A DNA stretch of 64,000 nucleotides from an uncultured virus (IMG/VR IMGVR_UViG_3300027896_004848) (lineage: Duplodnaviria > Heunggongvirae > Uroviricota > Caudoviricetes): IMG/VR virus record IMGVR_UViG_3300027896_004848. One strand, given 5' to 3'. This document shows, piece by piece, positions 14,207 to 52,576 of the stretch. The notes beneath the pieces are model-generated. The model saw only the letters and a list, made by a program, of their open reading frames with translations. It was not told where the DNA came from and did no database searches. A program made the position numbers and the translations under genes. Position 1 is the first letter of the stretch. Each line of letters begins with the position of its first letter.

Positions 14207-14281
14207 GCGGGAGTAGCTAAGTGGTATAGCTCAACGTTGCCAACGTTGAGGCCGTGGGTTCGAGCCCCATCTCCCGCTCCA
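14207..14281 (+). tRNA. tRNA-Gly(GCC)
   Basis: Acceptor GCGGGAG/CTCCCGC, anticodon arm CAACG-TTGCCAA-CGTTG, T loop TTCGAGC, encoded CCA. Confidence 0.97.
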
Positions 14282-14594
14282 TTTTTAGGAGAGATTATGC
14301 TTTCGGAAAAAGAAATGATAAATCAAATAGCAGACGCATTTACAAAATTAGAAGAAAAGGATGAGCGCGTATCTAAAATTTATAGTTCTAATTTAATAGA
14401 TAATATAATGGCAGCCGCTAAAAGCATAGATGCACTAGATATACCCTACAAGTTAGGTGACTGCAATATGGTATGGGGAGCTTATATAATTCCTGATGCC
14501 TCTGTTCCCAAGAATATTATTAGAGTACGTTCTGATTCTGGTTATTTCTTTGATTTTAAAATCAAAGAATCAGATTAAGAGGAGGTGAAATAAA

Positions 14595-14714
14595 ATGAAA
14601 AAATTACTTATTCTGATCTGCTTAGTTATTATGTTTGGGTGTATAACAACAGAGAAGCATGGTTATTTTTGGTGTGCCAAGAAAATACAAGGCACAAATA
14701 TACTCTGTCCCTAA
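14595..14714 (+). CDS. 39-aa lipoprotein (not in ORF track)
   Basis: AGGAGGTG RBS; MKKLLILICLVIMFGC lipobox then ITTEKHGYFWCAKKIQGTNILCP. Confidence 0.65.
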   Translation: MKKLLILICLVIMFGCITTEKHGYFWCAKKIQGTNILCP

Positions 14715-16576: not shown

Positions 16577-16577
16577 G

Positions 16578-16856
16578 ATGAGCTTTTTAGAAAAGGTAGC
16601 TAAGAAATTAAAAAAAGATAAAGTTGAAAAGGGGCAGGTACGCAACACTGTCTTACGAAAAATTAAAGAGCTAAAGCAGATAGCTAAAGTCTTAGAACAA
16701 TCTATTAAAATCAAAGAGGAAGAGTTACCAGAATATAAGGGTACTCCGAAAGCAAAACAGTTAAAAAAACAAATAAAAATAATGTTAAATGGGCTTATCT
16801 ATGTACAAGAGTCTATTAAACGGTTGGAAGGATATAGGGAAGTGACTACCTCATGA
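16578..16856 (+). CDS. Basic helical protein inserted within the GT2 domain
   Basis: GGAGGT RBS; MSFLEKVAKKL; stop overlaps next start (ATGA). Confidence 0.6.
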   Translation: MSFLEKVAKKLKKDKVEKGQVRNTVLRKIKELKQIAKVLEQSIKIKEEELPEYKGTPKAKQLKKQIKIMLNGLIYVQESIKRLEGYREVTTS

Positions 16857-18568
16857 TAAGGTCTATTACAATTTTAAAACCCAAAAAGTCTCTTAATTTC
16901 AGTGAAAGCTGTAACTTAGGTATAAAAAGTTCCAAGAACAAATATATATTTGTCGCAAATGATGATATTATCATAACGAAAAACAGTATTGAAGAGCTGG
17001 TCAAAAACACAGATGATGACACTATTACTGGGCCAGACTCTAACTGCAATCTAGGATTTCAGACTGATTATGCTTATACTGTAAAAGACGTTAAGCTTGT
17101 TCCTGCTATGACATTAGATCAGGTGAAGCACATAATACCCGATATCTATAATATAAAGCCAGTAAAACAGGATGTGCTAAAAAGAGACTGGCTGGCTTTT
17201 TTTGCTACAATGTTTACTAGGAAATGTTTTAATGATGTCGGTTTTATGGATGAAAGTTTTATCTATGATCGCGAAGATCTTGATTGGTGCATTGCGGCAA
17301 AGAAACTTGGGAAGAATTTTAAGCAGATTTTTGGGAGTTATTGTTTTCATTTTGGCGGGATATCCAGAAAAAGAAAGCATCAAGAATTGGGACTTAAGCA
17401 CGATTTAGATCAGGAGCATAACTATTTATATTACGCAAACAAGTATGGTATAAAAGACAAGCCTATTTTAGGCATATTTTGTAGTGACGCTTGGGAGCCT
17501 TGGGATGAAAATTCTTTGAATTCATCTGTTTCAAATAAGCCTAGCGGAATAGGCGGATCTGAGACACAGGTTATTTATTTATCACGGGAGTTTTCTAAAT
17601 TAGGATATAAGGTAAAGATATTTAATAAGTGTAAAGAACAGCATTTTGATAAGGGCTATGATGTGGAGTATATTCCTTTTCAAAATTTTGGAGAATATTC
17701 AAAGAAGTTGGAGTATGACTATTTTATAGCTAGTAGATATTTAGATTGTTTTGATATACCTTTTAAAAGTAAGCGTAATTTCGTGATGGCACACGATGTT
17801 TTTCTTATCATGAATGGAAAGCACCAACATGACGTAAAACAAGATAGGGTAGAAAAATACTTTTGTTTGAGTAATCGTCATAAGCAGTTTTTTAGTGAAT
17901 ATCATAATATTCCTATGGATAAGATATTGATGACATCCAACGGCTTAGATTTTTCAAGATTTGAAAATAAAAATATTAAAAAAGATCCTAATAGGCTTAT
18001 ATACAGCTCATCACCAGACAGGGGATTAGAGTACATGATGCCTGTACTAGATCAAGTCTACAAACAACATCCTCAAATGAGACTGCATGTCTATTATGGT
18101 TTTGAGAATTTCAGAGATCAGGATTATATTACAAAGATAAAAGCTGAAATGACTAAGAGGTCTTATATTACCTATCATGGCCGGGTTGGGCAGGATAGGC
18201 TAGCAGAAGAGTTTTTAAGAAGCGGTATTTGGAGTTACTTTTCTGGATTTAGTGAGACATTTTCAATTACGGCCCTTGAGGCCATGCAAAGCGGGGCATG
18301 CGTGCTTTCTTCTGCGTATTGGGGTTTGATTGACACGGTGGGCAATGCAGGTATTTTAATTGACTTACATGACAACTACAACAATATACACACAGATGCT
18401 TATAAAAATAAATGGAAAGAAGAATGTCTTAGATTGTTAAAAGATCAAAAATATGCTGATTCTTGGCGGGCTAAGGGCCTAGAAAGAGTCAAAAAATTTT
18501 CATGGACTGCTGTGACAGAACAATGGTCAGATCTGTTTTTAAAAGGCACATGGAAGGAAATCCAATAG
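16853..18568 (+). CDS. Remainder of GT2 domain + complete GT4-like domain (split GT part 3)
   Basis: NFSESCNLG, VANDD, EDLD, HFGG; then GIGGSE, YSSSPDRGL, ETFSITALEAM. Confidence 0.9.
   Translation: MIRSITILKPKKSLNFSESCNLGIKSSKNKYIFVANDDIIITKNSIEELVKNTDDDTITGPDSNCNLGFQTDYAYTVKDVKLVPAMTLDQVKHIIPDIYNIKPVKQDVLKRDWLAFFATMFTRKCFNDVGFMDESFIYDREDLDWCIAAKKLGKNFKQIFGSYCFHFGGISRKRKHQELGLKHDLDQEHNYLYYANKYGIKDKPILGIFCSDAWEPWDENSLNSSVSNKPSGIGGSETQVIYLSREFSKLGYKVKIFNKCKEQHFDKGYDVEYIPFQNFGEYSKKLEYDYFIASRYLDCFDIPFKSKRNFVMAHDVFLIMNGKHQHDVKQDRVEKYFCLSNRHKQFFSEYHNIPMDKILMTSNGLDFSRFENKNIKKDPNRLIYSSSPDRGLEYMMPVLDQVYKQHPQMRLHVYYGFENFRDQDYITKIKAEMTKRSYITYHGRVGQDRLAEEFLRSGIWSYFSGFSETFSITALEAMQSGACVLSSAYWGLIDTVGNAGILIDLHDNYNNIHTDAYKNKWKEECLRLLKDQKYADSWRAKGLERVKKFSWTAVTEQWSDLFLKGTWKEIQ
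18551..18564 (+). repeat. Putative attL core
   Basis: TGGAAGGAAATCCA encoding WKEIQ at the GT 3' end. Confidence 0.7.
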
Positions 18569-20826: not shown

Positions 20827-22764
20827 ATGAAGGGATTATACGAAAGAAGAACCAAAACGGGTGAAAAAAGATATCGTGGAAAATATAATAGTAAACACAC
20901 ACCTTGGACTACTTATGAAGAAGCTTGTAGACTGTTAGCGATACTCCAGACAGAAGGTATCCAGCGTAGAAAATCAAGAAAAGAAAAAATAAAGCAATTA
21001 AAAGCAAATATAAAAGTTAAAAAAGGCATAGAAAGTTGGGTAAACTTTAGGGGAGAAACATTTTATAGGGCAAGAACTACTGTAAATAGAAAGGCTATAC
21101 AATCAGATTGGACAACTTCTTATGAAGAAGCCTGTAACCAATTAGAAAATGCAAAGTCTAAAAAAATCTATGCTTCTGAAAAACAAAAAGAAGCTATAAA
21201 ACAATTGGAACTTGATGAACAGAAATACTTAGAAAAGCATTCAGAACCTAAAGAACTTTTAAATATTCCTGTTGATGTAAACGGAAAAATAAAAGGTATT
21301 GAAGAAAGAACTACAAAACAGGGTGAAACTAAATATAGGGCAGCTACTTTTGTTAATGGAAAGCGTGTTAGAACAGCTTGGACTTCTTCTTATGAAGAAG
21401 CCTATAAACAATTTATTAAAATGAGTTCATTTAGAGTAGCTGTACCACATAAAAACAGATATACAGTAAATGATAAAGATATAAGAATGTCAGAATTTTT
21501 AGAGTTATACTTTGAGTATATAAAAACAAGATATAAACCAAACACTCAAAGAAATATACGCTCAGTATTAACTAAAATTTATAGGCATAAAATGGACATG
21601 CCTCTTAGTGAAATATCAAAAGTCGATGTAATGCCTCACCTAAGAGTTTTAGTAAAAAAGATATCAGCAGCTCGTAATATTTCGGTTTTAAAAATGTTAC
21701 AGGAATATGCTAAAGCTTTTGAATATCCTTACACAATAAATATTGCAAGATTGTGGGAAGAAATCCGCAACTATGCTGCATCTGATGAAAAAATAAAATT
21801 TATTTCAAAAGAAGAAGTAGCTGAAATTTTTAAGTATATAGATGATAGTATTGTAAAAATTAAAGCTAGAAAAAAGTTTACAATTCATGCTGAGAAAAGC
21901 ATTAAAGACTATCAGCATTTTAAATTGGCAATAAAGATAGCTTTATATGGGGGTCTGCGTAGAAGTGAAGTTTTGGGATTACGCTACAAAGATATTCAAT
22001 TAGATAAAAGAATTATTAATGTTATTTCAGTTCAAAATTTAGATGGCACATACAAAATTGGAACTAAAAATGGAAAGACCAGGATTGTTCCAATGGCAGA
22101 TCATGTAAAATTAGAACTACAAGAATTTATGAATAAAGATTACAAGGCAGACAGTTACATTTTTGAAGGATATAATTATCATTTTATTCAAGTCAGAATG
22201 GATGCTCTTAATGTAGCTGTAAAGTTTAGAGATACATATGGCTTCCATACTTTCAGACATACTTTTGCTAGTTTATTCTTTAAGTTAAAAGGCACATCTC
22301 CCGAAGCTCTTGTAGATTTACAACAGATATTAGGTCATCAGCATATCAATACAACTATGCACTATGTCCATGTTTATAAAACTTACACAGGAAATATTTT
22401 AGATGGTCTAAGCTATGGTGAAGCAGAAAAGATAGAAGCTCAGAGAAAAGAAGAAGAAAAAGAAACTCTCATTAGTGCAACAGTAGCTTTAAAAATATTA
22501 TCTGACCAAATCAGAGTTGAAACACCTTATGACAAGGATCTCATTCCTGTATATGAAGGAATGGGGGGAGTATTTAATAAAGAAAGTAGATGTTGGATAT
22601 TTGATTTAAGCACAGAGAAAAATATTAGGAATATTTTAAAAGAAAGATTTGGATATGAGCCTACTGAAACGATAGAAGATAAAATAAAAGAAATGCAAAA
22701 ACAGTTGGCGACTTTAATAAGTATTGCTCAATCTAATAATGGTTTGTCTAATAAAATATCATAG
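20827..22764 (+). CDS. Tyrosine integrase with three N-terminal arm-binding repeats and a C-terminal extra domain
   Basis: GLRRSE, TKNGK, HTFRH, LGH, TTMHY catalytic set; 3x KG..ER.TK.GE..YR...WT.SYEEA-like repeats. Confidence 0.92.
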   Translation: MKGLYERRTKTGEKRYRGKYNSKHTPWTTYEEACRLLAILQTEGIQRRKSRKEKIKQLKANIKVKKGIESWVNFRGETFYRARTTVNRKAIQSDWTTSYEEACNQLENAKSKKIYASEKQKEAIKQLELDEQKYLEKHSEPKELLNIPVDVNGKIKGIEERTTKQGETKYRAATFVNGKRVRTAWTSSYEEAYKQFIKMSSFRVAVPHKNRYTVNDKDIRMSEFLELYFEYIKTRYKPNTQRNIRSVLTKIYRHKMDMPLSEISKVDVMPHLRVLVKKISAARNISVLKMLQEYAKAFEYPYTINIARLWEEIRNYAASDEKIKFISKEEVAEIFKYIDDSIVKIKARKKFTIHAEKSIKDYQHFKLAIKIALYGGLRRSEVLGLRYKDIQLDKRIINVISVQNLDGTYKIGTKNGKTRIVPMADHVKLELQEFMNKDYKADSYIFEGYNYHFIQVRMDALNVAVKFRDTYGFHTFRHTFASLFFKLKGTSPEALVDLQQILGHQHINTTMHYVHVYKTYTGNILDGLSYGEAEKIEAQRKEEEKETLISATVALKILSDQIRVETPYDKDLIPVYEGMGGVFNKESRCWIFDLSTEKNIRNILKERFGYEPTETIEDKIKEMQKQLATLISIAQSNNGLSNKIS

Positions 22765-23230: not shown

Positions 23231-24196
23231 ATGCAAGTCGCTATATCATCCACAGAAATAGGGAGTATTTTAGATATTACTCCACAAGGACTAGCTCAAT
23301 ACATTAGAGGTCTGGAATTAGATAAGGAAAAAGAAGAGTTTTTTGGGGGTAAAACAAGGTATCTTACACACGCAGGAGCTAGAAAACTTTTTACTGCCAG
23401 AGGTTTTAAATACCCAAAAAAGAATATTTGTTTTTATGCTAATAAAGGTGGCGTTGGAAAAACAACCTTAGCTATTAATATGGCTTATAGGGCTGCACAA
23501 TTAGGCGCAAGGGTATTACTTTTTGACCTAGATATGCAAGCCAATGCTACTAATACCTTTATAAGTCATATCCCAAAGCATGTTTTTTATGATGTTATTA
23601 CTAAGAATACAACCGTTGATAAAGTGATAATTCCATTAGATAATGGTTTAGATATTCTTCCAAGCTCTCTTACAAATACTCGCCTAGAGCTTGAATTAAT
23701 TACAAAACAATTCAACCAAGAAAGCTATTTTAAAAGCATCTTAGAACCAATCAGAGATAACTATGACTTGGTAATTATTGATTTGGCTCCAAGTCTTTCC
23801 CATGCTTCTTATTTGGCAGTTCTGGCTTCGGATCTCGTCTATATCCCTGCAACACCAGATATCTATTCAGCACAAGGAATTGATATAACCTGGGGAACAA
23901 TACAGGATATTGAAAAGAATTTTCCAAACAAGAAATTTGAAGTCAATGTTGTGTGGAATAAGTATAACAGTAAAGAAACAAACTCTCTTAAATTTATTAC
24001 TGACATGAAGAAATATGAGGGTATGGGAATAGCCCCTGTTATTATTAGAGTAGATGCTGCTTTAAAGAATGCTCAAGCTGAAGGAAAAACAACCTTTGAG
24101 TTTAAGAGCAAAGGCAATTCTCTTGAGGATATTGATGTATTGACTAAAGACATGCTTGGTATTGATTCTTTCTTTAATAAGAAGGCAAATGCATGA
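23231..24196 (+). CDS. parA: ParA ATPase with N-terminal HTH
   Basis: KGGVGKTT, DLDMQANAT, IIDLAP; N-terminal HTH extension. Confidence 0.9.
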   Translation: MQVAISSTEIGSILDITPQGLAQYIRGLELDKEKEEFFGGKTRYLTHAGARKLFTARGFKYPKKNICFYANKGGVGKTTLAINMAYRAAQLGARVLLFDLDMQANATNTFISHIPKHVFYDVITKNTTVDKVIIPLDNGLDILPSSLTNTRLELELITKQFNQESYFKSILEPIRDNYDLVIIDLAPSLSHASYLAVLASDLVYIPATPDIYSAQGIDITWGTIQDIEKNFPNKKFEVNVVWNKYNSKETNSLKFITDMKKYEGMGIAPVIIRVDAALKNAQAEGKTTFEFKSKGNSLEDIDVLTKDMLGIDSFFNKKANA

Positions 24197-25299
24197 ATAA
24201 GAGTAAAACGCTTTGCCTTGCTGATTTAATGAAGAAAGAAACTAAAGGCATAAACCCTATGAAACATAGAGAAGGTTTGGATAAACCTAGTTCTTCTTTT
24301 TTATTCAAGGATAAACAGGTAACAAACGGGCAACAAACAGATAACAATATAGATAGCAATCAGATAACAAACGGGCAACAAACAGATAACAATGAAAACT
24401 TGGAAAAAGAGAAACAGATAACACAAGGGATAACCATTAGGCAACAAACAGATAACAAACGGATAACAGATTTTAAGGTAGACGCACTTGTTGGGCATGA
24501 GAAAAAATTACTTTTTTTTATTAAAGAAAAATGCAGTTTAATAGGTGATTTAATCACGCCTCCAATTACAAATGAGCTAACAAGAGAAGCCTTAGAGTGT
24601 AGTATGGATACAGCTAAGATGATTGTTTATAGGTTAGTAAAAAAGGGTTTTATTAAAAGACATTCCAGCAAAACAGGTCGAGGTGGCTGGACTAGATTCT
24701 CTATATCAAAAGATTTATACCAAACCTTAAACAGGCAACAAACGGATAACAAACAGGGTACACAAGGGATAACACAAGGGATAACAAGCCCCTCTAGTAG
24801 TAGTAGTCTTAATATATTAAATAATACTACTACTGAAGGATGGTCTGAAATAGATATTGCCCCTCTTGAACAATTTGGCTTTACTGACACCCATATTAAA
24901 CAAATAATCAGTTCCAATAAGAGCAACCCTACACTTTTACAAAAGTCTATTGAGTATTTTGTTTATATGCTGGAAAACAAAACTCAAGATATCAGAGAAC
25001 CTATAGGATTTTTTATGTCTATTATGAGAAATGAAGGCATGATAGCGAAGCCATTAGGCTATAAAACCAAACTTGAAAGAAATCTTGAGATTCTTGATCA
25101 AGAAAGAAAAGCTGAACAGGATAAAGTTAAAAAATATATTGAAGAAAATTATGAAACTTTAACAAGGCATCCTAGTATAATAGCAGAGAAGGAAAAATTA
25201 TCTCAAAATGGGTTTATGTCGGAAGACTCCAGGGCATATTTGGAAACCATGAAAGGGATACTGTTTGATAGGATACAAAAAGGCGAATTACAAGCGTAG
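24193..25299 (+). CDS. Replication initiator-like (wHTH) protein with intragenic iterons
   Basis: Central wHTH (AKMIVYRLVKKGFIKR...GRGGW) flanked by QQTDN repeats, SSSSS linker, coupled to parA. Confidence 0.7.
   Translation: MNKSKTLCLADLMKKETKGINPMKHREGLDKPSSSFLFKDKQVTNGQQTDNNIDSNQITNGQQTDNNENLEKEKQITQGITIRQQTDNKRITDFKVDALVGHEKKLLFFIKEKCSLIGDLITPPITNELTREALECSMDTAKMIVYRLVKKGFIKRHSSKTGRGGWTRFSISKDLYQTLNRQQTDNKQGTQGITQGITSPSSSSSLNILNNTTTEGWSEIDIAPLEQFGFTDTHIKQIISSNKSNPTLLQKSIEYFVYMLENKTQDIREPIGFFMSIMRNEGMIAKPLGYKTKLERNLEILDQERKAEQDKVKKYIEENYETLTRHPSIIAEKEKLSQNGFMSEDSRAYLETMKGILFDRIQKGELQA
24311..24787 (+). repeat. Iteron-like 11-bp repeats in two clusters
   Basis: G(G/A)(C/T)AACAAAC(A/G) units; 29-mer duplicated at 24320-24348 and 24365-24393; second cluster about 24730-24787. 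Confidence 0.75.
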
Positions 25300-28940: not shown

Positions 28941-29312
28941 ATGACAAATTATGGTAAAGAATTGATATTAGATTTACATGAGTGTGATCCAAGCACTTTT
29001 ACAAGAGCCAGCATAGAAGAATACTTTGTACAGATGTGCAAGAAGATTGATATGAAGCGCTGTGATCTTTTCTTTTGGGACGACTTTGGACTACCGCCAG
29101 AAGAATGCCAGACTTTGCCTCATTTAAAAGGGACTTCTGCTGTACAGTTTATAATGACTTCAAATATCACAATACACACTTTGGATATCATGAAGCGGGT
29201 ATACTTGAATATCTTCTCATGTAAAGATTTTGACCCTAAAGTAGCTGAAGGATTTTCTCTTGAGTGGTTTAAGGGAAAGACTGTAAACAAAGTAATCGTA
29301 GACAGGATATAA
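28941..29312 (+). CDS. speD: Pyruvoyl-dependent AdoMet decarboxylase-like proenzyme
   Basis: G..LILDL..C, GTSAVQFIMTSNITIHT, LNIFSCK.FD. Confidence 0.8.
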   Translation: MTNYGKELILDLHECDPSTFTRASIEEYFVQMCKKIDMKRCDLFFWDDFGLPPEECQTLPHLKGTSAVQFIMTSNITIHTLDIMKRVYLNIFSCKDFDPKVAEGFSLEWFKGKTVNKVIVDRI

Positions 29313-29314
29313 TA

Positions 29315-30304
29315 ATGAATATTGTGTTTATAATACCAACTGGGATTGGTGCTGATATAGGTGGTCATGCAGGAGATGCTACTCCAGCAGCAAAATTAAT
29401 AGCCTCTTGTTGTGACAATTTAATTATACACCCTAACGTAGTCAACGCTTCTGATATAAATGAGATGTCTGAAAATATGTGGTATACTGAAGGAAGTATT
29501 TTAAATAGATTTTTGACCGGATCTATAAAGCTACAAAGGCCACACAAAAATAAAATACTTTTAGCAGTCAATAAACCTGTATGGATAGAGACTATAAATT
29601 CAGCATCCTCTGCAAGAGCAACTGTTGGGGCTGATATTTCTATATTAGAGTTAAATGAGCCTTTAGAAATGATAGCAACAATGGAAGATGGAAAGGCTTC
29701 GGGAATAGTAAATGGTTGGGAAAGCCTAGTAAAGCAGGTATCTGATTATTCTTTTGACGCACTAGCTCTTGCTACACCCATAGATGTCGATAAAGAAGTT
29801 GCATTAAAATATATGCATGATGGTGGTGTAAATCCTTGGGGTGGTGTAGAGGCAAAAGCTTCTAAACTGATTGCTAGTGCAATCAATAAGCCTGTAGCAC
29901 ATGCACCTGTAGGACATACACTTAAAGATTGGAAAGAGATAGCAGATCCTAGAATGGCAGCTGAGACTGTATCTGTATGTTATTTGCATTGTGTACTTAG
30001 AGGCCTTCACCGGGCTCCTAGAATAGAACCAAAAGAAGGTAATAAAGGACTATCTTATGAAGATATAGATTGTCTGATATCACCGTGGGGATGCTGGGGA
30101 GAACCACATGAAGCTTGTTATAATAGAGGCATACCTGTAATAGCTGTAAAAGAAAATAAGACCTGTCTGAATGAGCCTATGACAAAAGCGATTGCTGTAG
30201 AAAATTATCTGGAAGCTGCTGGTTTGGTCATGTCTTGGAAGGCTGGGGTAAGTATGGAATCTCTAAGAAGACCGTTAGCTCATACAACTGTTATAAAAGC
30301 TTAA
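29315..30304 (+). CDS. DUF3326 family protein
   Basis: IIPTGIGADIGGHAGDA, HPNVVNA, NPWGGVEA, AHAP, L.GL.RAP, NYLEAAG. Confidence 0.8.
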   Translation: MNIVFIIPTGIGADIGGHAGDATPAAKLIASCCDNLIIHPNVVNASDINEMSENMWYTEGSILNRFLTGSIKLQRPHKNKILLAVNKPVWIETINSASSARATVGADISILELNEPLEMIATMEDGKASGIVNGWESLVKQVSDYSFDALALATPIDVDKEVALKYMHDGGVNPWGGVEAKASKLIASAINKPVAHAPVGHTLKDWKEIADPRMAAETVSVCYLHCVLRGLHRAPRIEPKEGNKGLSYEDIDCLISPWGCWGEPHEACYNRGIPVIAVKENKTCLNEPMTKAIAVENYLEAAGLVMSWKAGVSMESLRRPLAHTTVIKA

Positions 30305-30322
30305 AGAGTTTATGGAGAAATT

Positions 30323-30820
30323 ATGTCGGAGACCGGTTTAGCTAGGGGCTCTTTATCAAAGTGGTGTAAGGGGTACGGAATAGATTTGGGCTTTGGGGGG
30401 GATAAGATAGTACCTCATGCTATTGCTGTTGATTTAGCTGTACCGTATACTAAGACTGGGATGGATCCTGTACAGCTTGGTGGGGATGCTAGAGATCTTT
30501 ATTGGTTTAAAGATGGTGTTTTAGGGTGGGTCTACTCAAGCCACCTTTTAGAGGACTTCACGGACACTACTTCAGTTTTAGCTGAATGGACAAGGGTCTT
30601 AAAAAAAGATGGTTTTTTGATTCTATATTTACCTGATGAGCAAGCTTATAGAGCGTACTGCCAGAAAAATGGGCAAGGTAGAAACCCAAATCACAAAAAT
30701 GAAAATTTTAATGCTGAGTGGGTTAAGAAATGCGCAGAGTCCTTAGGTAATCTGGAATTAGTACACTGTTCAGAAATAGTAAACGGTTATTCTTTTGAAA
30801 TTGTTTTTAAAAAGAAATAG
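30323..30820 (+). CDS. Methyltransferase (type 11-like)
   Basis: DLGFGG, VYSSHLLE, EWTRVLKKDG.L.LYLPD. Confidence 0.8.
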   Translation: MSETGLARGSLSKWCKGYGIDLGFGGDKIVPHAIAVDLAVPYTKTGMDPVQLGGDARDLYWFKDGVLGWVYSSHLLEDFTDTTSVLAEWTRVLKKDGFLILYLPDEQAYRAYCQKNGQGRNPNHKNENFNAEWVKKCAESLGNLELVHCSEIVNGYSFEIVFKKK

Positions 30821-30822
30821 TG

Positions 30823-31743
30823 CTAATTTAAAATATCTTTTAAATAAAAGATAAATCTGTCTGCCATAAACTGCTTGCAGCAATTTATGTGCTCTAGGTA
30901 ACAGCTTTCAAAATTCCAAAAATGTGCTAGCCACTTAGACTCACAAGAAATACAAGGTATGTCAGGACAAATAGGATAGGTCTTTCCTATTTTTCTATTA
31001 GGTATCCTATATTTTGGATCTACTGAAGTATAACCACAAATTATAGGTGTCTTTGTTGTACCTGCTAAATGTATTGGCCCACTGTCTATACCGCAGACGA
31101 CTTTAGCTTTTCCTATTATTGTAGCAAGCTCAGGTATAGTTGTTTTATTTCTTAGATCTATTCCAAAATTATCAATGTTATCAGGTAAAGAGGATTCTGT
31201 CTTAAGATGCTCTGCTAAATCTTTATCTGTTTTTCCTATAAAAACAGGAGTATACCCTTTTGATTTAATATATTCTGCTGTCTCCAGCATATAGTCTGCG
31301 TGCCAACATCTTGTTTTATCACGATAAGAGGAAATTAAAATTACTGACTTTGAAAAATCAATGTTAAATTTGGAGACATCTACCTCAATTAAGGGGACGT
31401 AATCTAACTGCTCTAAGGGTATGATTCTATCTGTCAATTTTATAGACGCAAACTGAGAAAGGTTCATGTGCTTTGGGGTATTTCTGATGATCTTTCCATT
31501 AGCTTTGGTATTTAAAAGAGCAACAGCTTCTTTATTAGTGAGGCCCCAAGGCTTATCAAAATCTCTGAATTTATCATCTGGTACAAAGTGCAGTATGGGG
31601 CGAAATACTTGCTTAGCGGTGACTATATAGGTATCTGTTTTGTGATGATAGTGGTCTATCATCCACTTTATAACAGGAGCGGTAGCTATTACATCTCCTA
31701 AAGCATAAGAATTTAATGAATAGCAAATAGAGTTTAAAACCAC
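30823..31743 (-). CDS. GT9 (heptosyltransferase-like) glycosyltransferase
   Basis: ALGDVI..P, DLRNKTTI.EL, GIDSGPIHLAG. Confidence 0.85.
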   Translation of the reverse strand: MVLNSICYSLNSYALGDVIATAPVIKWMIDHYHHKTDTYIVTAKQVFRPILHFVPDDKFRDFDKPWGLTNKEAVALLNTKANGKIIRNTPKHMNLSQFASIKLTDRIIPLEQLDYVPLIEVDVSKFNIDFSKSVILISSYRDKTRCWHADYMLETAEYIKSKGYTPVFIGKTDKDLAEHLKTESSLPDNIDNFGIDLRNKTTIPELATIIGKAKVVCGIDSGPIHLAGTTKTPIICGYTSVDPKYRIPNRKIGKTYPICPDIPCISCESKWLAHFWNFESCYLEHINCCKQFMADRFIFYLKDILN

Positions 31744-31815
31744 TCTGTTATGATACTGTCGATATTTTAAAAACTATACTTGAAAATATAAGCAGTATTT
31801 CGTATAATTTCTTTT

Positions 31816-32463
31816 ATGGTAGATCTCTTATTAAAAGATGACAGAATCGACAGGCTTCCTTTGCCAAGGGTGACTGTTGTGGTAGCAGACTGTATTGACT
31901 TTCGTCGAGCTAGAAGGACTTTACAACATTGTGTAAATCTTTGCTCATTTGGTGAGGCTAAGTTTTTTACACATTTTGAAAAACCTGATGATCCTTATAT
32001 TGTCTCTATTGAAAAATTGGATTCTGTACACAAGTATTCAGATTTTATGATCAAAAAGATGGTAAACTATATAAAAACAGATTTTGTACTTACCATACAG
32101 CATGACGGTTTTGTAGTGAATACTAAAATGTGGACAGATGAGTTTTTAAATTATGATTATATAGGGGCCCCTTGGCATCAGTCTCAGTTAAAATATAGAG
32201 ATAATCTAGATTATAGGGTAGGTAATGGAGGGTTTAGTCTTCAGTCTCGTAAGTTTTTAGAATTTTTAAGAGATGATCCAAAATTTGATAACTGCTATCC
32301 TGCAGGGGATGCTATTATTTGTCAGAAATATAGGCCTTATTTAGAAGAGCATGGGTTTAAATTTGCCCCTGTGGATCTAGCCCATAAATTTAGTTGTGAG
32401 AATTATATTTGGAATGGGGCTTTTGGGCAGCATGCTTATTTTATGCTGCACCCTTTACGGTAG
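31816..32463 (+). CDS. DUF5672-like GT-A-type protein
   Basis: QHDGFV, FL.YDYIGAPW, VGNGGFSL.S, A.KFS.E. Confidence 0.75.
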   Translation: MVDLLLKDDRIDRLPLPRVTVVVADCIDFRRARRTLQHCVNLCSFGEAKFFTHFEKPDDPYIVSIEKLDSVHKYSDFMIKKMVNYIKTDFVLTIQHDGFVVNTKMWTDEFLNYDYIGAPWHQSQLKYRDNLDYRVGNGGFSLQSRKFLEFLRDDPKFDNCYPAGDAIICQKYRPYLEEHGFKFAPVDLAHKFSCENYIWNGAFGQHAYFMLHPLR

Positions 32464-33230: not shown

Positions 33231-33938
33231 ATGACGAAGCAAGCTGTTGAATTTATGTTATTTATTTTAAATCAGTCTCGTAACTCTCTAGAAAACTATT
33301 TATTAAAACACTCCTTCAAAAATATAAATAGCTGCCTTGTCTTAGGTAATGGCCCTATAGTGCTTACTGCACATATGGATACTATAAATACTAAGGCTTT
33401 AGAAGCCAGTGAAGATCTGTTTTTTCCTTTACCTTTGCTGGTAGAGCGTGGGGTAATACGTAAACAGAACGAAATAATAACTAGCCCCATGCAACGGTTA
33501 ATGGTCTTAGGCGGTGATGATAGATGTGGTATATTTCTGGCGCTGATGCTTTATAAGACTCATCCTGATTGGTATACTGTGTTTTTTACAGATGAAGAGG
33601 AACGTGGAGGTACTTTTAATACAGCTAATTATGCCCCAAGGAGCCTCTGGTATCATAAATTTGTATTATGTCTAGATACCCATGCTAAGTCGGTATTCCC
33701 ATATCATGACCCTTTTACTCATATTTTTAATAGATTAAATGCTAAGTACGACTATAGATATAGAGCACATAGCCTTTCAAACGTACAGCATATGGCCGGT
33801 GCTTATGGTATTAATCTTGGTGTTGGGTATCATAAAGAGCACACTTCCTATGAGCACATTGTACTAAAAGAGCTTTATGAAGCTTATCTGTATTCCTTAG
33901 AACTATCAGACATTATTATAAATAAAAAGGCTACTTAA
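33231..33938 (+). CDS. M20/M28-like zinc peptidase
   Basis: AHMDT, GGDDRCG, DEEERGG, GVGY..EHT. Confidence 0.8.
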   Translation: MTKQAVEFMLFILNQSRNSLENYLLKHSFKNINSCLVLGNGPIVLTAHMDTINTKALEASEDLFFPLPLLVERGVIRKQNEIITSPMQRLMVLGGDDRCGIFLALMLYKTHPDWYTVFFTDEEERGGTFNTANYAPRSLWYHKFVLCLDTHAKSVFPYHDPFTHIFNRLNAKYDYRYRAHSLSNVQHMAGAYGINLGVGYHKEHTSYEHIVLKELYEAYLYSLELSDIIINKKAT

Positions 33939-34557
33939 AAAACTCGACTCTATTACGGCCTTTTGCTTTAGCTTGGTATAGTGCTTTATCTGCTTCTGAT
34001 TCTGTATGACCTACTCCAATAGAAGCACCTAAAGTAATTTCAGAAAGCTCATCTTTTACAGATTTTTCACCCTTATAATGGTCTGAGATTTTTTGTTTTT
34101 GAATGCTTTCCAAAATTCTATGGGCTATTTTTACTCCAGTCGCTATAGATACATCTTTTATATGTACCACAAACTCATCACCACCAAATCTAGTCACTTT
34201 TGTCTCATCTTTTCCTCTAAGGACAGCTTTTATACCTGCTGCTAGAGCTTCTATAGCTGCATGGCCAGCTGCATGACCATGTGTGTCATTGACTTTTTTA
34301 ATTCCATCGCCGTCAATGTACAGGTACATACCTTTTTCTTTCTCTAGCTGTTCAAAATGTTGTTTATGTAAAAGGCCTGTCATAGGGTCTTGACTGATTA
34401 CTCCTATCAGTTTCTTTATATACTTAAGATACTCTACATCACGTTTAGAAGTAGTATGTTCAAGGTCTTTGGGAATTTTGGGGATTTCATAGGTGTGTTC
34501 TGGCTCAGCAGCACTAAGTTTGGTCATCACCTTTTTAAGAATATTTAGTCTATTCAT
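33931..34557 (-). CDS. Stand-alone GGDEF-domain nucleotide cyclase (atypical specificity site)
   Basis: DPMTGL, IDGDGIKKVNDTHGH, RFGGDEF, SIG, ADKALYQAK..GRN. Confidence 0.92.
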   Translation of the reverse strand: MNRLNILKKVMTKLSAAEPEHTYEIPKIPKDLEHTTSKRDVEYLKYIKKLIGVISQDPMTGLLHKQHFEQLEKEKGMYLYIDGDGIKKVNDTHGHAAGHAAIEALAAGIKAVLRGKDETKVTRFGGDEFVVHIKDVSIATGVKIAHRILESIQKQKISDHYKGEKSVKDELSEITLGASIGVGHTESEADKALYQAKAKGRNRVEFFK

Positions 34558-34997
34558 ATCATTTGTGGTTTGATTACTAAATTATGATGATATTTTACTA
34601 ATTAACTACCTAGGACAAGGGGGATTTTATGCAGTTATCGATGAATGGGAAAGAAATAGGTCAGATTTATTTTAATATACAATTAGATAAAGAGCATTTC
34701 GCTTCTATAAGTGTCTTAAAAGAACAGCTAAATAATGGATCTTTTAAGGTTAGTATAGGAGCAGCTAGTTTTATAGTTAAGTCTTTTAGAAAAGTATATT
34801 TTACAGAACACAAAATTTATATTGAAGGTGCAGAACTTCAATTTTAGGGGGTCTTAGTGAATTCATCTACTCAAGCCTTTTACATTTCACCAGGGCTAGG
34901 TAAGTTAGTTACTCAAACAATTATCTTAACATTAGACCCAAACACTGCGGTTTTGTTAAAAATAGCTTCTAAAGTGGTAATTTCGTAAGGAGATATT

Positions 34998-47399: not shown

Positions 47400-50300
47400 T
47401 TGATGGCAGAGAGCACATTAAGTAAGCTAACAGCTAATTATGTAAAGTCTTTAAATGACGTCACTGATGTAAAAGATATAATCACATTCTTAGAAGCTCC
47501 TTGGGGTCTTAATCTTAATGAGACCACACAGCCTCTATTACCGGTACAAAAATTTATATTGAGACTGTATTACAAGCTACCTTTAAATGAAAAAGATTTT
47601 ACCATAACTGTGACAGATAAATATAATGAAAGAGCTTTGTATAAATTTACTGAAACAGAATACTTACAGTTTTTATATAAAGAAGGGCGCTGTAATATAC
47701 AATATCAAGATAATAAGCCAAGAAATGAATTGGTGCTTGTCATTGGAAGAAGAGGAAGTAAATGTTTTACTTTTGATTCTTTTATTACAACAACAGTAGG
47801 CACTATAACAGTTAAAGAGCTTTTTGATAGGCTGTCTTTAAAAGAAAAAATTGGTATTTTTACATATAATAAAGATACTTGGAAAAAATATATAACCTAT
47901 AACATAAAAGCAGAATATAATGGACTAAAACCTTCTTTAAAAATAACAACGGGTTGTGGTAGATCGGACAGTATAACAACAGAACATCCATATTTTGTTT
48001 GGAGAGATAGCTGGCTAGAGCCACAATGGATTAATGCTTCGGAGTTACAAATTGGAGATTCTTTAGCAGTAGCACGATCTCAAGAATTATTTGGCAACAC
48101 ATCTATAGGTGCTCATAAGGCAAAATTATTAGGATATTTATTAGGTGATGGTGGTTTGACTTCTGGTGTTAAATTTACTAATATGAATAAAGCTATTATT
48201 AATGAAATTCAAGAAATATTAACAAAAGATTTTCCTAATCATAAATGTATAGGATCTAAAAAAAATAAAGTTCTCTTGTGGCTAAAAGAAATAAATGAGT
48301 ATAATAAAAAATCGAAAGAAAAAAGAATTCCAGATTGTATTAAAAAAGCACCAAAAGATGAAATATCTTTATTTTTAAATAGACTTTTTAGTTGTGACGG
48401 CTATGTAGCTATAGATATTCCTAGAAAAAGTCATAAATCACCAAAATGTATAATTGCTATAACATCAGCTTCAAAATTTTTTATAGAGGATATTCAAAGA
48501 GAACTGTTAAAATTTGGAATTATGTCTTATTGTACGTATATAAAACCTACTTTTAAAGATAAAGTTTATGATGCTTGGAAGCTTTGTATAGCCGATAGTG
48601 CTTCTATTATAAAATTTGCTAATGAAATAAATATTTATCAAAAAGAAGATAAAATAAATAAAGCTAAAGAAATTTGTTTAATTAAGGGTAAAAATAAATT
48701 TAAGCTTGGGTATCTGCCAAAAGGTGCTTTAACTAGAGTTTTAAAAATAAAAAAAGATAAAAATTTAAAAAACTATGAAATTTATGGGGGTACCTCAAAA
48801 GATAATGAAAGACTAAAAAACTATACTTTGCAAAAAGAAAAAGCAATTAAATATGCTAAAAATATAGGAGATACTCTTTTAGAAAATATTGCTGGATCAG
48901 AAATTTGTTGGGATAAAATAAAAACTATTGAAAATTTAGGCATAAGAGAGACAGTAGCTTTAGAGGTTGCTGATACAAACATTATTGGGAATGACATAAT
49001 ATCTCATAATTCCACACTCTCATCTTGGATAGCCGCTTACGAGGTATACCGTCTTTTAAGGTTGTATCATCCTCAAAAATTTTATAGTATGCTCCCTGAT
49101 GATGAAATTCATCTTACAGCAATAGCTACTGCAGAAGATCAAGCCAATCTTCTTTTTAGACAAATTACTTCACATTTTGCAAAATGCACATATTTTCATA
49201 GGTACATGAATAAGCCGACACTTGATAGAGTGTCTATAAGAAGCCGTCGGGATCTTGAAAAGTATGGAGAAGAGGGCAGGGCTTCTATTTTGATTAAATC
49301 AGCTGCTTGTTCTGCTAGAGCTGTCCGTGGTGCTGGTAATATTTTAGTAATAATGGATGAGCAAGCTCATTTTTTGGAAGAAAAGTCCCAGTCTAATAGG
49401 TCAGATAAATCTGTATATGATGCTATTACTCCTTCAGTTGCCCAGTTTGGGATGGATGGTAAAATCATAAATATATCCTCACCTTTAAATAAATCAGGGG
49501 TACTTTGGGATTTATATAATCAGGCATTGAGTGGGGCAGAGCATTTACTAATGATAAAAGCACCAAGTTGGGAAGTAAATACAACACTTTCCTCAAACTT
49601 TTTAAAAGCTCGTCATAACTCCGACCCTGTTATGTATGACTGTGAATTTGGGGCTGATTTTTCAGATAGAGTGAAGTCATGGATGCCTGAAGATTATTTA
49701 AGACAAGTAATAGACAAGCAATTAAAACCAAAATCAAATGGTCGGCAAAAGACTCCTTATTTTATGGGTGTAGATATAGGTCTAAAAGGTGATGGTACTT
49801 CTATTGCTATTACTCATGTAGAAAAAGTGCGAGAAGAGATTAAAGAGACAATAGTGTTTACTGATAAAATAGAATTGGATTTGTGTGATGTAATATACGC
49901 TGGCGAAGGCGCTTATGAAAAAGCTGAGATACTTGATTTTGAATTGGTAGCTGACTGGATTCAAAATCTTTGTAATAAGTTTTATATAGTAAAGGGACTC
50001 ATTGACCAACATAACGGTGTCTTGGCAGTACAGAATTTAATGAAAAGGGGTCTTTCACAATTTGATATGGTCTATCATACAAGGACTTTTAATTCCGATC
50101 TTTATCAAAATTTTATGATGTTAGTGATAGATAAGAAGTTAAGACTGTATAATGACGTAAAGGATCCTTATTCTGATAGTGAGTTGATTGAGGAGTTACT
50201 AAAATTGCAAGTAAAACAATATTCTAGACATACGATAGAAGTAGAGGCACCTAAGATTACTGGAGCCCATGATGATAGAGCTGACGCACTTGTAAGAAGT

Positions 50301-50492
50301 GTCTGGCTTGCTACAGAAGCATTAAGAAATGGGCATATAGGGTCTGGCTTGAGTCTTGCTAATAATAGATATACTGGAATACGAGATGCTAATCAGTATG
50401 CTTTAATGAAATCCCGTATTCATAATATTACAGATAATACTAGGCTTATTAAAAAGCATAAATTGCATAATTGGGCCAAGAAGTATGGATAG
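47400..50492 (+). CDS. terL: Terminase large subunit containing an intein
   Basis: Walker A GRRGSK/S, IMDEQAH, ISSP, EFGADF, GVDIG..D, HDDRAD. Confidence 0.92.
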   Translation: MMAESTLSKLTANYVKSLNDVTDVKDIITFLEAPWGLNLNETTQPLLPVQKFILRLYYKLPLNEKDFTITVTDKYNERALYKFTETEYLQFLYKEGRCNIQYQDNKPRNELVLVIGRRGSKCFTFDSFITTTVGTITVKELFDRLSLKEKIGIFTYNKDTWKKYITYNIKAEYNGLKPSLKITTGCGRSDSITTEHPYFVWRDSWLEPQWINASELQIGDSLAVARSQELFGNTSIGAHKAKLLGYLLGDGGLTSGVKFTNMNKAIINEIQEILTKDFPNHKCIGSKKNKVLLWLKEINEYNKKSKEKRIPDCIKKAPKDEISLFLNRLFSCDGYVAIDIPRKSHKSPKCIIAITSASKFFIEDIQRELLKFGIMSYCTYIKPTFKDKVYDAWKLCIADSASIIKFANEINIYQKEDKINKAKEICLIKGKNKFKLGYLPKGALTRVLKIKKDKNLKNYEIYGGTSKDNERLKNYTLQKEKAIKYAKNIGDTLLENIAGSEICWDKIKTIENLGIRETVALEVADTNIIGNDIISHNSTLSSWIAAYEVYRLLRLYHPQKFYSMLPDDEIHLTAIATAEDQANLLFRQITSHFAKCTYFHRYMNKPTLDRVSIRSRRDLEKYGEEGRASILIKSAACSARAVRGAGNILVIMDEQAHFLEEKSQSNRSDKSVYDAITPSVAQFGMDGKIINISSPLNKSGVLWDLYNQALSGAEHLLMIKAPSWEVNTTLSSNFLKARHNSDPVMYDCEFGADFSDRVKSWMPEDYLRQVIDKQLKPKSNGRQKTPYFMGVDIGLKGDGTSIAITHVEKVREEIKETIVFTDKIELDLCDVIYAGEGAYEKAEILDFELVADWIQNLCNKFYIVKGLIDQHNGVLAVQNLMKRGLSQFDMVYHTRTFNSDLYQNFMMLVIDKKLRLYNDVKDPYSDSELIEELLKLQVKQYSRHTIEVEAPKITGAHDDRADALVRSVWLATEALRNGHIGSGLSLANNRYTGIRDANQYALMKSRIHNITDNTRLIKKHKLHNWAKKYG
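47763..49010 (+). mobile_element. 416-aa intein with LAGLIDADG homing endonuclease
   Basis: K/CFT start, T.EHP block B, LLGYLLGDG and LFSCDG motifs, SHN/S end. Confidence 0.93.
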
Positions 50493-50947: not shown

Positions 50948-52576
50948 ATGAACAAGAATAGCTCATTTAAAAACAGAAGATATGTGGTATCATCCACTTC
51001 ATCAAAATTTCAAAAGAAAGCTGATTCTCCTAATATTTCTGAAAGTGGATTCTTTGACTTTTATTCACCAGTTCTTTCTAAGGACTTTCTAGAATTACCA
51101 CAAAATTTAAAAGAACGTAGAGCTTGGTATAGATTCTTTTATACTTTTAATGAAATGGTAAGAAGAGCAATAGACTTACATAGTGAATTACCTTTATCAA
51201 AGATTCGGCTCACACCACCTAAATGTGCCGATTATGATAAAGCACAATATATACAGACCTTTTTTCAGAACATGTGTGATAGGCTAAAGCTGTTTAAAAA
51301 GCTTTTAGCTATTAGTCATGAGTATTATTTAATGGGTCTGTGTTATGTGTTTTTAGAAGACGGTAATGAGAAGGGTGCCAAAAATAACCCCCTATTGAGC
51401 ATAGATGAAGAACTGCAAATGCCTGAAGAGGCTATGAATCTTAGAAAAAAATATGATAAGTTGCCTGATTATCAAGGTTGGGAGAGGCTACAAATTTTAC
51501 CACCAGATATGGTAAAGATATCGAGGTGGCAGTTTTCAGATAAAGTAAGAGCGGAATTGTTGATACCTACAGACAGTCGTAATCTATTAAAAGACTTACG
51601 GTTCAATCCTCATATGCAGGATGAGACTGAGAAAATGCTGGAAGATGTTCCATCTGAAATTAGAGAAAAGTTAGAGACAAGTGAGCCGATAGTGTTTGAT
51701 ACAGACCCCTATTCAGGGTCTCATTTAGTAGAGATACTTCGTAAGACTGAAAACTATGAAGAATCTGGATCATCTATATTAGATGCCTGTCTACGTTCTT
51801 TACTGCTTCTTGATAAATACAGGCAGGCTCAGTCAATTATAGCTTCTAGACACATGACTCCTATCAGGGTTGTGTCGGCAGCTAAAGCGTCTTTAGATGA
51901 TATAGAATATCTTAGAGAACAGGTAGATGCAGCTCTTGTAGATCCTGATTATTCCATTATTGCAAATTACGATATTACATGGAATGAGATGGGTTCTGAT
52001 AACAGAATTTTACATCTAGCTGATGAGTATGCAGAGCTTGAGAAAAAACTTACATGCGGTCTAGGTGTGACTATAGGTCTCTTGACGGGTGAATCTACTT
52101 ATGGTGGAGAAAGAGTCTCTTTAGAAATTATAAACACACAATATATGTTGTTTAGGGAAGTAATACAGGATTTTGTTGAAAGTCATATTTTTAAGCCAAT
52201 AGCTCTTAAAAAAGGCTTCTGGGAATATGATAAATTTGGTAATAAGACACTTCTTTATCCTAAACTTTCCTTTACTAGACTTGCAATTAGAGACAATGAT
52301 GCGATATTTGGACAGTTGTTTGATTTATATCAAAAGGGATCAATTTCTTTGTCTTATATATTAGATCTATTGGGTATAGACCCTACAGCGGTAAGAGAAG
52401 AGATGGAAAAGGATGTGTTTACCGTAAATGATAGTAGATTTAATGATGTTATAAATTCTGCAGCCACAACAGTAGGGCCTATGCTGGCCGAGCAGACTGA
52501 TTTAATGGCTAAGGTTGCAGAATATCTAAAATTAAAGGTAAAGGCAGAATCAACAGAAGAGGAACGATTCAAATGA
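50948..52576 (+). CDS. Portal protein
   Basis: 542 aa after terL; V.RAIDLH.ELP, EY..G.C.V, S.L..C.R.L, GL......GE.TY. Confidence 0.75.
   Translation: MNKNSSFKNRRYVVSSTSSKFQKKADSPNISESGFFDFYSPVLSKDFLELPQNLKERRAWYRFFYTFNEMVRRAIDLHSELPLSKIRLTPPKCADYDKAQYIQTFFQNMCDRLKLFKKLLAISHEYYLMGLCYVFLEDGNEKGAKNNPLLSIDEELQMPEEAMNLRKKYDKLPDYQGWERLQILPPDMVKISRWQFSDKVRAELLIPTDSRNLLKDLRFNPHMQDETEKMLEDVPSEIREKLETSEPIVFDTDPYSGSHLVEILRKTENYEESGSSILDACLRSLLLLDKYRQAQSIIASRHMTPIRVVSAAKASLDDIEYLREQVDAALVDPDYSIIANYDITWNEMGSDNRILHLADEYAELEKKLTCGLGVTIGLLTGESTYGGERVSLEIINTQYMLFREVIQDFVESHIFKPIALKKGFWEYDKFGNKTLLYPKLSFTRLAIRDNDAIFGQLFDLYQKGSISLSYILDLLGIDPTAVREEMEKDVFTVNDSRFNDVINSAATTVGPMLAEQTDLMAKVAEYLKLKVKAESTEEERFK

What the first reader, a model, noticed from the sequence alone, without database searches (positions are those of the whole stretch)
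33931..34557. Phage GGDEF cyclase with His at the guanine-specificity Asp
Seen: GGDEF and the metal-binding Asp are intact, but the usual NDxxGHxxGD reads NDTHGHAAGH (CAT at 34261-34263). The RxxD (RGKD) sits 7 rather than 5 residues before GGDEF, and there is no sensor domain. Established: this Asp (PleD D344) reads guanine, and Ser/Thr there converts Hypr GGDEF enzymes into 3',3'-cGAMP synthases. Inference: a constitutive, possibly feedback-insensitive cyclase making a non-canonical dinucleotide to rewire host signalling or jam nucleotide-based immunity. Its leader and upstream motif suggest late expression and possibly virion packaging.
Basis: partly seen in the sequence, partly recalled or inferred. 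Interest (0 to 1): 0.85.

Follow-up and report, generated by a model that had tools for sequence, protein, structure and literature searches.

The report
Phage GGDEF cyclase with switched base-reader
A family of large uncultured phages carries its own sensor-less copy of the enzyme that bacteria use to make the messenger c-di-GMP, but with the residue that chooses the nucleotide replaced by histidine (or serine, threonine), so the phage probably makes a different messenger to steer or confuse its host; the product has not been measured.

Summary
Observation confirmed: minus-strand ORF 34557-33931, 208 aa, GGDEF fold, His99 at PleD Asp344. It is no read error: in 47 family members the site is His 27, Thr 8, Asp 7, Ser 4, Glu 1, against His in 0 of 399 other GGDEF domains. 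Nine catalytic or structural residues are invariant in 47 of 47, and the cross-dimer Arg is mostly Lys. The family forms one branch; the two members with informative context are phage genes; no member was found in cultured phages or bacterial genomes. A conserved N-terminal stalk is modelled as a homodimer (0.72 against 0.00 for the best control), fitting constitutive activity. Best reading (0.5): an active phage cyclase making adenine-containing or mixed dinucleotides. The His product is inferred, not shown. 'Feedback-insensitive' is doubtful: the I-site Arg147 is kept in 43 of 47. Virion packaging is plausible (shared leader; head-module context in one relative); the promoter motif is weak. 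Phage GGDEFs and Ser/Thr Hypr enzymes are known; this family was not found in ten literature searches. The scan had no look-alike sequence, only bacterial or archaeal variants. New variant; interest 0.66.

The parts
33931..34557 (-). Gene for a 208-aa stand-alone GGDEF-family cyclase (P0001)
   Evidence: ORF; Pfam PF00990 E 2.7e-19; TIGR00254 82.7 bits against cut-off 37.4; AlphaFold2 pLDDT 90.5 and Foldseek hits to SadC, WspR, PleD, GacA
34513..34557 (-). N-terminal basic/aliphatic leader helix (residues 1-15), candidate head-targeting peptide
   Evidence: Helix 3-15 in the model. A PSSM from 8 homologue leaders (query excluded) ranks this ORF 2nd of 97, with ORF 54047 1st and the post-portal ORF 52573 3rd; null maximum 14.2, 99.9th percentile 8.8. 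Function inferred.
34396..34500 (-). Dimer stalk: P-x-x-P-x-x-L segment and helix 38-54 leading into the D57-x-x-T-G turn
   Evidence: P26, P29, L32, Y43, I47 are at least 90% conserved in A1; the same residues form the best-supported contacts of the homodimer model, score 0.72 against 0.00
34363..34365 (-). Lys65 at the cross-dimer Arg position (PleD R300, GacA Y304)
   Evidence: K 40, R 4, A 2, Q 1 of 47; role of the position from PMC6456294 section 13; GacA sequence
34288..34314 (-). D82-G-D84-G-I-K87-K-V-N90: metal ligand, phosphate-binding Lys, sugar-edge Asn
   Evidence: D82, D84, K87, N90 in 47 of 47; codons
34261..34263 (-). His99 at the base-reading position (PleD D344, GacA S347/348)
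   Evidence: Codon CAT; H27 T8 D7 S4 E1 of 47
34207..34218 (-). R114-G-K-D117, RxxD of the I-site, two residues further from GGDEF than in PleD
   Evidence: spacing 7 in 18 of 47 members, 6 in 3, 5 in 2, 8-14 in 5, no RxxD in 19
34171..34185 (-). G125-G-D127-E128-F129 signature
   Evidence: D127 and E128 in 47 of 47
34117..34119 (-). Arg147, second I-site Arg (PleD R390, GacA R393)
   Evidence: 43 of 47
34573..34579 (-). TAGTAAT, a one-mismatch variant of the ACTAAT-containing motif seen upstream of some structural genes; weak late-promoter candidate
   Evidence: pattern widened post hoc to include this gene

Best explanation
An active, sensor-less GGDEF dinucleotide cyclase of large tailed phages. 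Two copies pair through their own N-terminal stalk (modelled), so the two half-sites meet without an input signal (inferred). Metal, phosphate and general-base residues are kept (shown), so two NTPs are joined into a 3',3' cyclic dinucleotide as in other GGDEF enzymes (inferred from family). The base-reading pocket is rebuilt: Asp344 is His, the cross-dimer Arg is Lys and three neighbouring residues are changed (shown). Imidazole can donate or accept a hydrogen bond, as Ser/Thr does in Hypr enzymes, so ATP is likely accepted and the products are likely cGAMP and/or c-di-AMP, with or without c-di-GMP (inferred; no His enzyme was found tested). The protein is probably made late and may be carried in the head (weakly supported). 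Its likely use is to impose a dinucleotide signal on the host (inferred).
For: D82, D84, K87, N90, H95, G98, D127, E128, K197 in 47/47, with 0 changes on the tree. The site holds only polar hydrogen-bonding residues, H/T/D/S/E; His in 0/399 background domains. Twelve members carry Ser/Thr and all 47 have Asp at the centre of GGDEF, which meets the Hypr rule (PMC6456294 section 12). The cross-dimer Arg, whose presence skews products to c-di-GMP, is absent in 43/47. Homodimer model: score 0.72, best of 3 controls 0.00, runs agree in at least 86% of contacts, pLDDT at least 87; the mark was reached by 20 of 30 solved pairs and 1 of 23 single chains, and GGDEF dimers are solved, so likeness may help the pass. 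One branch: 100/99 for 17 representatives, SH-aLRT 86 for all 47. Phage context for L001 and L002. Leader shared with post-portal proteins in the window and in L195.
Against: No assay exists. His is larger than Asp, and the Goldilocks model shows that a distance mismatch at this site can inactivate the enzyme. Seven members keep Asp, and an S-to-D change gives c-di-GMP. The site needs 11-14 changes, the same as the median column (13 of 154 columns), so rapid diversification is not shown. Characterised GacA keeps F331 and L347, so the family's Leu/Ile there is not a known Hypr signature. The family is not sister to the Ser-type bacterial group with any support. In the window the gene is not in a structural operon and faces against its neighbours. 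The leader PSSM missed the post-portal protein of L196 (score -0.1). No receptor, riboswitch or phosphodiesterase partner was found.
Confidence: 0.5

Rival explanations
1. A constitutive ordinary diguanylate cyclase. His (and Ser/Thr) still read guanine in this rebuilt pocket, and the phage raises host c-di-GMP to change surface, motility or biofilm, as proposed for the GGDEF genes of YuA-like and Vojvodinavirus phages.
For: N90 invariant; 7/47 members keep Asp, mostly on deep branches. One D-to-S mutant stayed a pure diguanylate cyclase. The three cultured-phage GGDEFs read here (G gp350, AN14, SP-15) all have Asp. The I-site arginines are kept. Lys65 can still stack on a base. Lysogens of GGDEF-bearing Bordetella phages over-produce biofilm, gene not tested (PMC8471281 passages).
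Against: Asp is the guanine determinant in characterised enzymes. It is lost in 40/47 members, together with the cross-dimer Arg in 43/47. His occurs in 0/399 other domains.
Confidence: 0.25
2. The site has lost its base-reading job. The protein is base-agnostic or no longer cyclises: it binds or consumes NTPs or dinucleotides (a sink, or a maker of linear pppNpN).
For: Site variability equals the median column. His is bulky, and mismatched distances inactivate GGDEFs. The conserved Asn of the TGLxNR motif is mostly His (33/47). The I-site arginines could bind dinucleotides.
Against: The whole catalytic set, including the general base E128, is invariant in 47/47. Position 99 needs 13 changes among five polar states, while neighbours 92, 93 and 96 need 23-24. 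His is kept down to 35% identity.
Confidence: 0.17
3. His narrows the pocket so that a pyrimidine is read in one or both half-sites, giving cUAMP-like or other dinucleotides not reported for GGDEF enzymes.
For: His reaches further than Asp or Ser. Met59 accompanies all 27 His and 4 Ser members but none of the 7 Asp members. A minimal DAC makes cUAMP after pocket changes (PMC13640721 passage). A single residue sets purine against pyrimidine choice in CD-NTases (recalled, no call).
Against: The sugar-edge Asn, a purine contact, is invariant. The His-Met link rests on 2-3 independent pairs and cannot be tested. No ligand pose was available.
Confidence: 0.08

Closest known systems
Canonical GGDEF diguanylate cyclases (PF00990; PleD, WspR, SadC)
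   Same: Fold (Foldseek E about 1e-13 to 1e-10), catalytic residues, stalk helix before the DxxTG turn, I-site arginines
   Different: His for Asp344, Lys for Arg300, Leu/Ile/Val for Phe331, Ile for Leu347, mostly Met for Leu294; two-residue insertion after RxxD; no sensor; own dimer clamp; phage-encoded
Hypr GGDEF cGAMP synthases (GacA/GSU1658, PDB 6D9M; Bd0367)
   Same: Non-Asp residue at the specificity site, Asp at the centre of GGDEF, non-Arg cross-dimer residue; 12 of 47 family members have Ser/Thr
   Different: This protein has His. GacA and Bd0367 are bacterial signalling enzymes with an input domain (6D9M is titled a response-receiver protein). GacA keeps F331 and L347. No supported sister relation to the Ser-type bacterial group; GacA itself was not in the tree.
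GGDEF genes of cultured phages: Bacillus phage G gp350, SP-15 gp150, YuA-like AN14_48, Bordetella Vojvodinavirus
   Same: Short phage-encoded GGDEF proteins without a soluble sensor; noted in print as rare (PMC10333796, PMC8471281)
   Different: G gp350, SP-15 and AN14 all have Asp at the site; G gp350 and AN14 are 28% identical to P0001; all three fall outside the family; G gp350 and SP-15 start with hydrophobic segments
GGDEF domains in phage polyvalent proteins (Iyer 2017, PMC5512222)
   Same: Proposed to interfere with host nucleotide signalling
   Different: Domains inside very large multidomain proteins. The long viral GGDEF proteins seen here (L022, L027, L028) have Asp and lie outside the family.
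mCpol/OptS (Panoptes) and PanS (PanDA) constitutive decoy cyclases
   Same: Small, sensor-less, constitutive cyclases in phage-host conflict; OptS shares the palm fold, and its product ratio is set by one Ser/Asn residue
   Different: Bacterial defence genes paired with an effector. P0001 scores below the mCpol cut-off (21.1 against 26.4), keeps the full GGDEF motif, has no effector neighbour and is phage-encoded.

Membership tests
GGDEF domain family (PF00990) | Score above the curated cut-off and GGDEF fold | tested here: met
   70 bits against 23.8; Foldseek
Canonical diguanylate cyclase | GG[D/E]EF motif, metal Asp, Lys332, Asn335, Lys442/Arg446 | tested here: met
   D82, K87, N90, G125-F129, K197, R201
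Canonical diguanylate cyclase | Asp at PleD 344 | tested here: not met
   His99
Canonical diguanylate cyclase | Cross-dimer Arg (94% of predicted DGCs, PMC6456294) | tested here: not met
   Lys65
Canonical diguanylate cyclase | Makes c-di-GMP from GTP | not testable with these tools
   Needs an assay
Canonical diguanylate cyclase | Functional I-site (RxxD five residues before GG, plus Arg390) | tested here: inconclusive
Hypr GGDEF | Ser or Thr at PleD 344 | tested here: not met
   His in P0001; met by 12 of 47 relatives
Hypr GGDEF | Asp at the centre of GGDEF | tested here: met
   47 of 47
Hypr GGDEF | Non-Arg cross-dimer residue (Tyr, Ser, Ala, Gln in cGAMP-rich enzymes) | tested here: inconclusive
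   Lys is not Arg, but it is not among the residues listed
Hypr GGDEF | Makes 3',3'-cGAMP | not testable with these tools
   Needs an assay
mCpol / Panoptes OptS | mCpol profile above cut-off, GGDEF motif nearly absent, effector gene adjacent | tested here: not met
   21.1 against 26.4 bits; motif intact; no PADLOC hit for 7 of 7 proteins scanned
Polyvalent-protein GGDEF | Domain within a large multidomain protein | tested here: not met
   208 aa; full-length family members found are 158-327 aa; a search of 365-2000-aa proteins with residues 18-120 found none of 281 candidates, which is weak evidence
Virion-packaged head protein | Present in purified virions or cleaved by the prohead protease | not testable with these tools
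   Uncultured phage; indirect support only

The most novel reading that the evidence does not exclude
These phages carry a pre-dimerised cyclase in the head and deliver it with their DNA as a signal-forging counter-defence. Switching one residue (Asp, Ser, Thr, His, Glu) changes the dinucleotide made, and the His form makes c-di-AMP, cGAMP or a dinucleotide new to GGDEF enzymes. The forged signal keeps Panoptes/PanDA-type effectors repressed or occupies CBASS receptors with the wrong ligand: counter-defence by making a signal, not by destroying or sequestering it.
Probability: 0.15. Interest if true: 0.9.

Novelty: new variant of a known kind. Interest (0 to 1): 0.66.

Why it matters
GGDEF specificity is described as an Asp (c-di-GMP) or Ser/Thr (cGAMP) switch. 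This family puts five natural states of that site, His the commonest, on one small sensor-less scaffold, so a single panel of purified proteins can test the rule and may reveal a new product. The phage countermeasures to nucleotide immunity described in the papers read here destroy or sequester signals; a phage that makes its own would add a route, proposed for polyvalent proteins in 2017 (PMC5512222) and not found demonstrated for a GGDEF enzyme in my searches. If it makes only c-di-GMP, it is still a constitutive phage cyclase that reads guanine without the canonical Asp.

Tried and rejected
Read error or one-off mutation: rejected. Cultured-phage member: none among 11 records for P0001 or the 60 of 153 listed for P0137. 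Hypervariability of site 99: not shown. His-Met59 co-evolution: too few independent pairs. Leu331/Ile347 as a Hypr signature: shared with 31 Ser/Thr background domains but absent from GacA, so rejected as a known signature. Promoter: 9 sigma-70-like sites against 8.4 expected. ACTAAT precedes 8 of 87 genes against 2.0 expected, uncorrected for AT-rich intergenic DNA, and the exact copy near this gene faces the other way; TASTAAT occurs 29 times against 47.5 in shuffles. K/R-x-A protease-site scan: hits in 23 of 87 ORFs of all kinds, none in this one, uninformative. Riboswitch or partner: only a tRNA in the window, L001 and L002. GGDEF in five related phage records: 0 of 5, all 3-57% complete, so uninformative. 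More loci: single-protein viral scans found none; a degenerate DNA pattern gave two spurious hits and L002 again. Expression: no RNA holder listed. The ESM Atlas returned only generic GGDEF clusters. No whole genome is held, and cluster members could not be listed, so the contexts of 44 of the 47 family members are unknown. Hallberg 2016 (PNAS), which may survey other residues at this site, is not held; figure supplements of PMC6456294 were not visible, and its 8 text supplements gave no relevant hit.

Full report
OBSERVATION. The feature is a minus-strand ORF, 34557..33931, of 208 residues. It matches Pfam GGDEF at E 2.7e-19. Its AlphaFold2 model (pLDDT 90.5) matches solved GGDEF domains. Counting along the PleD chain printed, His99 (CAT, 34263-34261) is Asp344, and RGKD lies 7 residues before GGDEF instead of 5.

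THE GENOME. The window encodes an intein-bearing large terminase, a portal, a head maturation protease, a polymerase III clamp and clamp loader, a primase, ParA and an integrase. The closest portal hits among deposited phages are a 485-kb uncultured phage (40%), the 309-kb Acidobacteriota myovirus Tunturi 5 (37%) and Bacillus phage G (26%). The only run holding the DNA is a freshwater metagenome that may be its source. The host is unknown. The gene faces against its neighbours, between a peptidase-like gene and two unknown ORFs followed by DnaJ, about 10 kb from the head module.

A FAMILY, NOT AN ACCIDENT. The homologue search gave 29 proteins at 155-419 bits, then a gap to 70. The search of representatives added more distant members, and viral contigs gave L001 and L002. 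I scored 47 sequences: P0001-P0030, P0122-P0132, P0136, P0137, P0143, P0242 and the L001 and L002 products. Three fragments (P0133, P0134, P0155) were left out; L002 is a near-copy of P0126; L031 appears identical to P0129 and was not added. The family is one side of a branch (SH-aLRT 86, quick tree of 97 rows, six short rows dropped; 100/99 for 17 representatives among 56 rows, bootstrap not fully settled). A further profile search added no clear member among the 120 rows listed.

ACTIVE SITE. D82, D84, K87, N90, H95, G98, D127, E128 and K197 are present in 47 of 47. Position 99 is His 27, Thr 8, Asp 7, Ser 4, Glu 1; an earlier motif count misread P0028 as Ala, and the alignment corrects it to Asp. 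Among 399 other GGDEF domains from 296 of 320 retrieved proteins the site is Asp 353, Ser 29, Asn 9, Gly 4, Ala 2, Thr 2, His 0. His members go down to 35% domain identity. Asp and Thr dominate the deep branches and His the large crown group. With the site's column removed, the tree needs 12-13 changes at this site (11-14 over 300 bootstrap trees) against 0 at the catalytic residues. That equals the median of 154 columns, so the site is released from the Asp constraint but is not unusually fast. Other pocket changes: Lys for the cross-dimer Arg (40/47), Leu/Ile/Val for Phe331 and Ile for Leu347 (47/47), Met for Leu294 (32/47). That these last three line the base pocket in PleD is recalled, not from a call.

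WHAT THE LITERATURE ALLOWS. In GacA, Ser348 contacts the Watson-Crick edge and Asn339 the sugar edge. Ser/Thr enzymes have GGDE[F/Y] exclusively, S-to-D gives c-di-GMP, and a distance mismatch inactivates (PMC6456294 section 12). A cross-dimer Arg favours guanine and is replaced in cGAMP-rich Hypr enzymes (section 13). Bd0367 S214D makes almost only c-di-GMP, and GacA R393A removes I-site binding (PMC9140294 passages). So the 12 Ser/Thr members meet the sequence rule for cGAMP synthesis, and the His members have lost both described guanine determinants. No His variant was found tested. The step from His to 'accepts ATP' is my inference.

REGULATION. Residues 20-54 form a conserved segment. The homodimer model pairs helix 38-54 with its copy and packs P26, P29 and L32 across it; residues 58-61, 64-67 and 125-126 also touch. 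Score 0.72, best of three controls 0.00, at least 86% agreement between runs, pLDDT at least 87. The mark was reached by 20 of 30 solved pairs and 1 of 23 single chains. Those counts hold only roughly, because my own alignment was used and GTP and Mg rode along, and solved GGDEF dimers may have helped. This supports a constitutive dimer but does not show it. Feedback insensitivity is doubtful: Arg114 is kept in 44/47 and Arg147 in 43/47. Both are also common in the background set (31/31 and 24/31), and 19 of 47 members lack RxxD, so the I-site may be working or decaying.

LATE EXPRESSION AND PACKAGING. A profile built from 8 of 11 homologue leaders (3 did not fit the anchor; P0001 and P0002 excluded) scores ORF 54047 at 21.9, this gene at 16.4 and the post-portal DUF5661/ferritin-like ORF 52573 at 12.5 among 97 ORFs. 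It scores the post-portal DUF5661 ORF of the related phage L195 at 27.3. The null maximum was 14.2 in 5000 draws. It missed the equivalent ORF in L196. In L001 (Thr) the gene follows the head protease and a ferritin-like gene and precedes the major head gene. In L002 (Thr) it is 1 base after a gene with a weak virion-protein hit (E 1.5e-4) and 2 bases before an unannotated 637-aa gene. Several members without the leader have a basic C-terminal tail instead (likeness to head-protein tags judged by eye). Packaging is plausible, about even odds. The promoter motif is weak.

COMPARISON WITH WHAT IS KNOWN. Phage GGDEF genes are known but rare: YuA (PMC10333796 passages and section 5), Bordetella siphoviruses (PMC8471281 passages), G gp350 and SP-15. 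The three read here have Asp and fall outside the family. Iyer 2017 proposed that GGDEF domains of polyvalent proteins interfere with host nucleotide signalling (PMC5512222 passages). The jumbo-phage survey PMC7824862 has GGDEF only in its reference list (passages). Panoptes and PanDA show that constitutive minimal cyclases matter in phage defence (PMC12657218 passages; PMC13640721 abstract and passages). I also saw passages of PMC13725321, PMC12484599 and PMC11924767, none of which describe this family. Ten searches found no description of it; the library lacks most subscription papers, including Hallberg 2016. The scan's index had no look-alike sequence and no phage case; it had bacterial and archaeal variants.

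VERDICT. It works like a Hypr-type GGDEF cyclase in having lost the guanine determinants, but it is not a member by the Ser/Thr criterion, nor a canonical diguanylate cyclase by the Asp criterion. Shown: the gene, the family, the intact core, the five-state site and, for three members, the phage context. Modelled: the dimer. Inferred: activity, product, packaging and role. Odds: adenine-containing or mixed purine product 0.5, c-di-GMP only 0.25, base-agnostic or non-cyclising 0.17, pyrimidine product 0.08. New variant of a known kind; interest 0.66.

Noticed in passing
window 52573-53499 and 54047-54382 (+); L195 5919-6209: ORFs near the portal share the MNRxxIIxKVxxKL leader; 52573 joins DUF5661 to an encapsulin-type ferritin-like domain. 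Candidate head-cargo tag in this phage group.
   Followed up: partly
window 47400-50492 (+): Large terminase with an intein containing a LAGLIDADG-like domain.
   Followed up: no
window 20827-22764 and 23231-25299 (+): Tyrosine integrase with a three-fold repeated N-terminal segment, followed by ParA and an unknown gene with DNA repeats at 24290-24468: possible temperate or plasmid-like lifestyle.
   Followed up: no
window 4604-5131, 11133-18568, 28941-32463, 58700-59551: Many sugar-modification genes (dTDP-sugar epimerase, glycosyltransferases, methyltransferases, nucleotidyl transferase, SAM decarboxylase, DUF3326, DUF5672).
   Followed up: no
window 14207-14281 (+): tRNA-Gly(GCC); the listed ORF at 14237 overlaps it, so that start is doubtful.
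   Followed up: no
L002 14759-20059: PRPP synthetase, NUDIX/adenylyltransferase and NAMPT genes lie within 10 kb of the family gene; they resemble phage NAD-restoring counter-defence pathways (name recalled, not tested).
   Followed up: partly
L001 9986-10003: The L001 family gene has no ATG/GTG/TTG start in frame; an ATT codon just after the ferritin-like gene's stop may be the start.
   Followed up: no
P0290-P0372 (no window coordinates): A group of about 30 bacterial-type GGDEF proteins, mostly about 360 aa, with Ser/Thr at the specificity site, Met at the cross-dimer position and Leu for Phe331; product not known to me.
   Followed up: partly
L010, L022, L027, L028: GGDEF domains inside viral proteins of 1245-4009 aa, probably polyvalent proteins; L006 and L018 have Asn at the site.
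   Followed up: no
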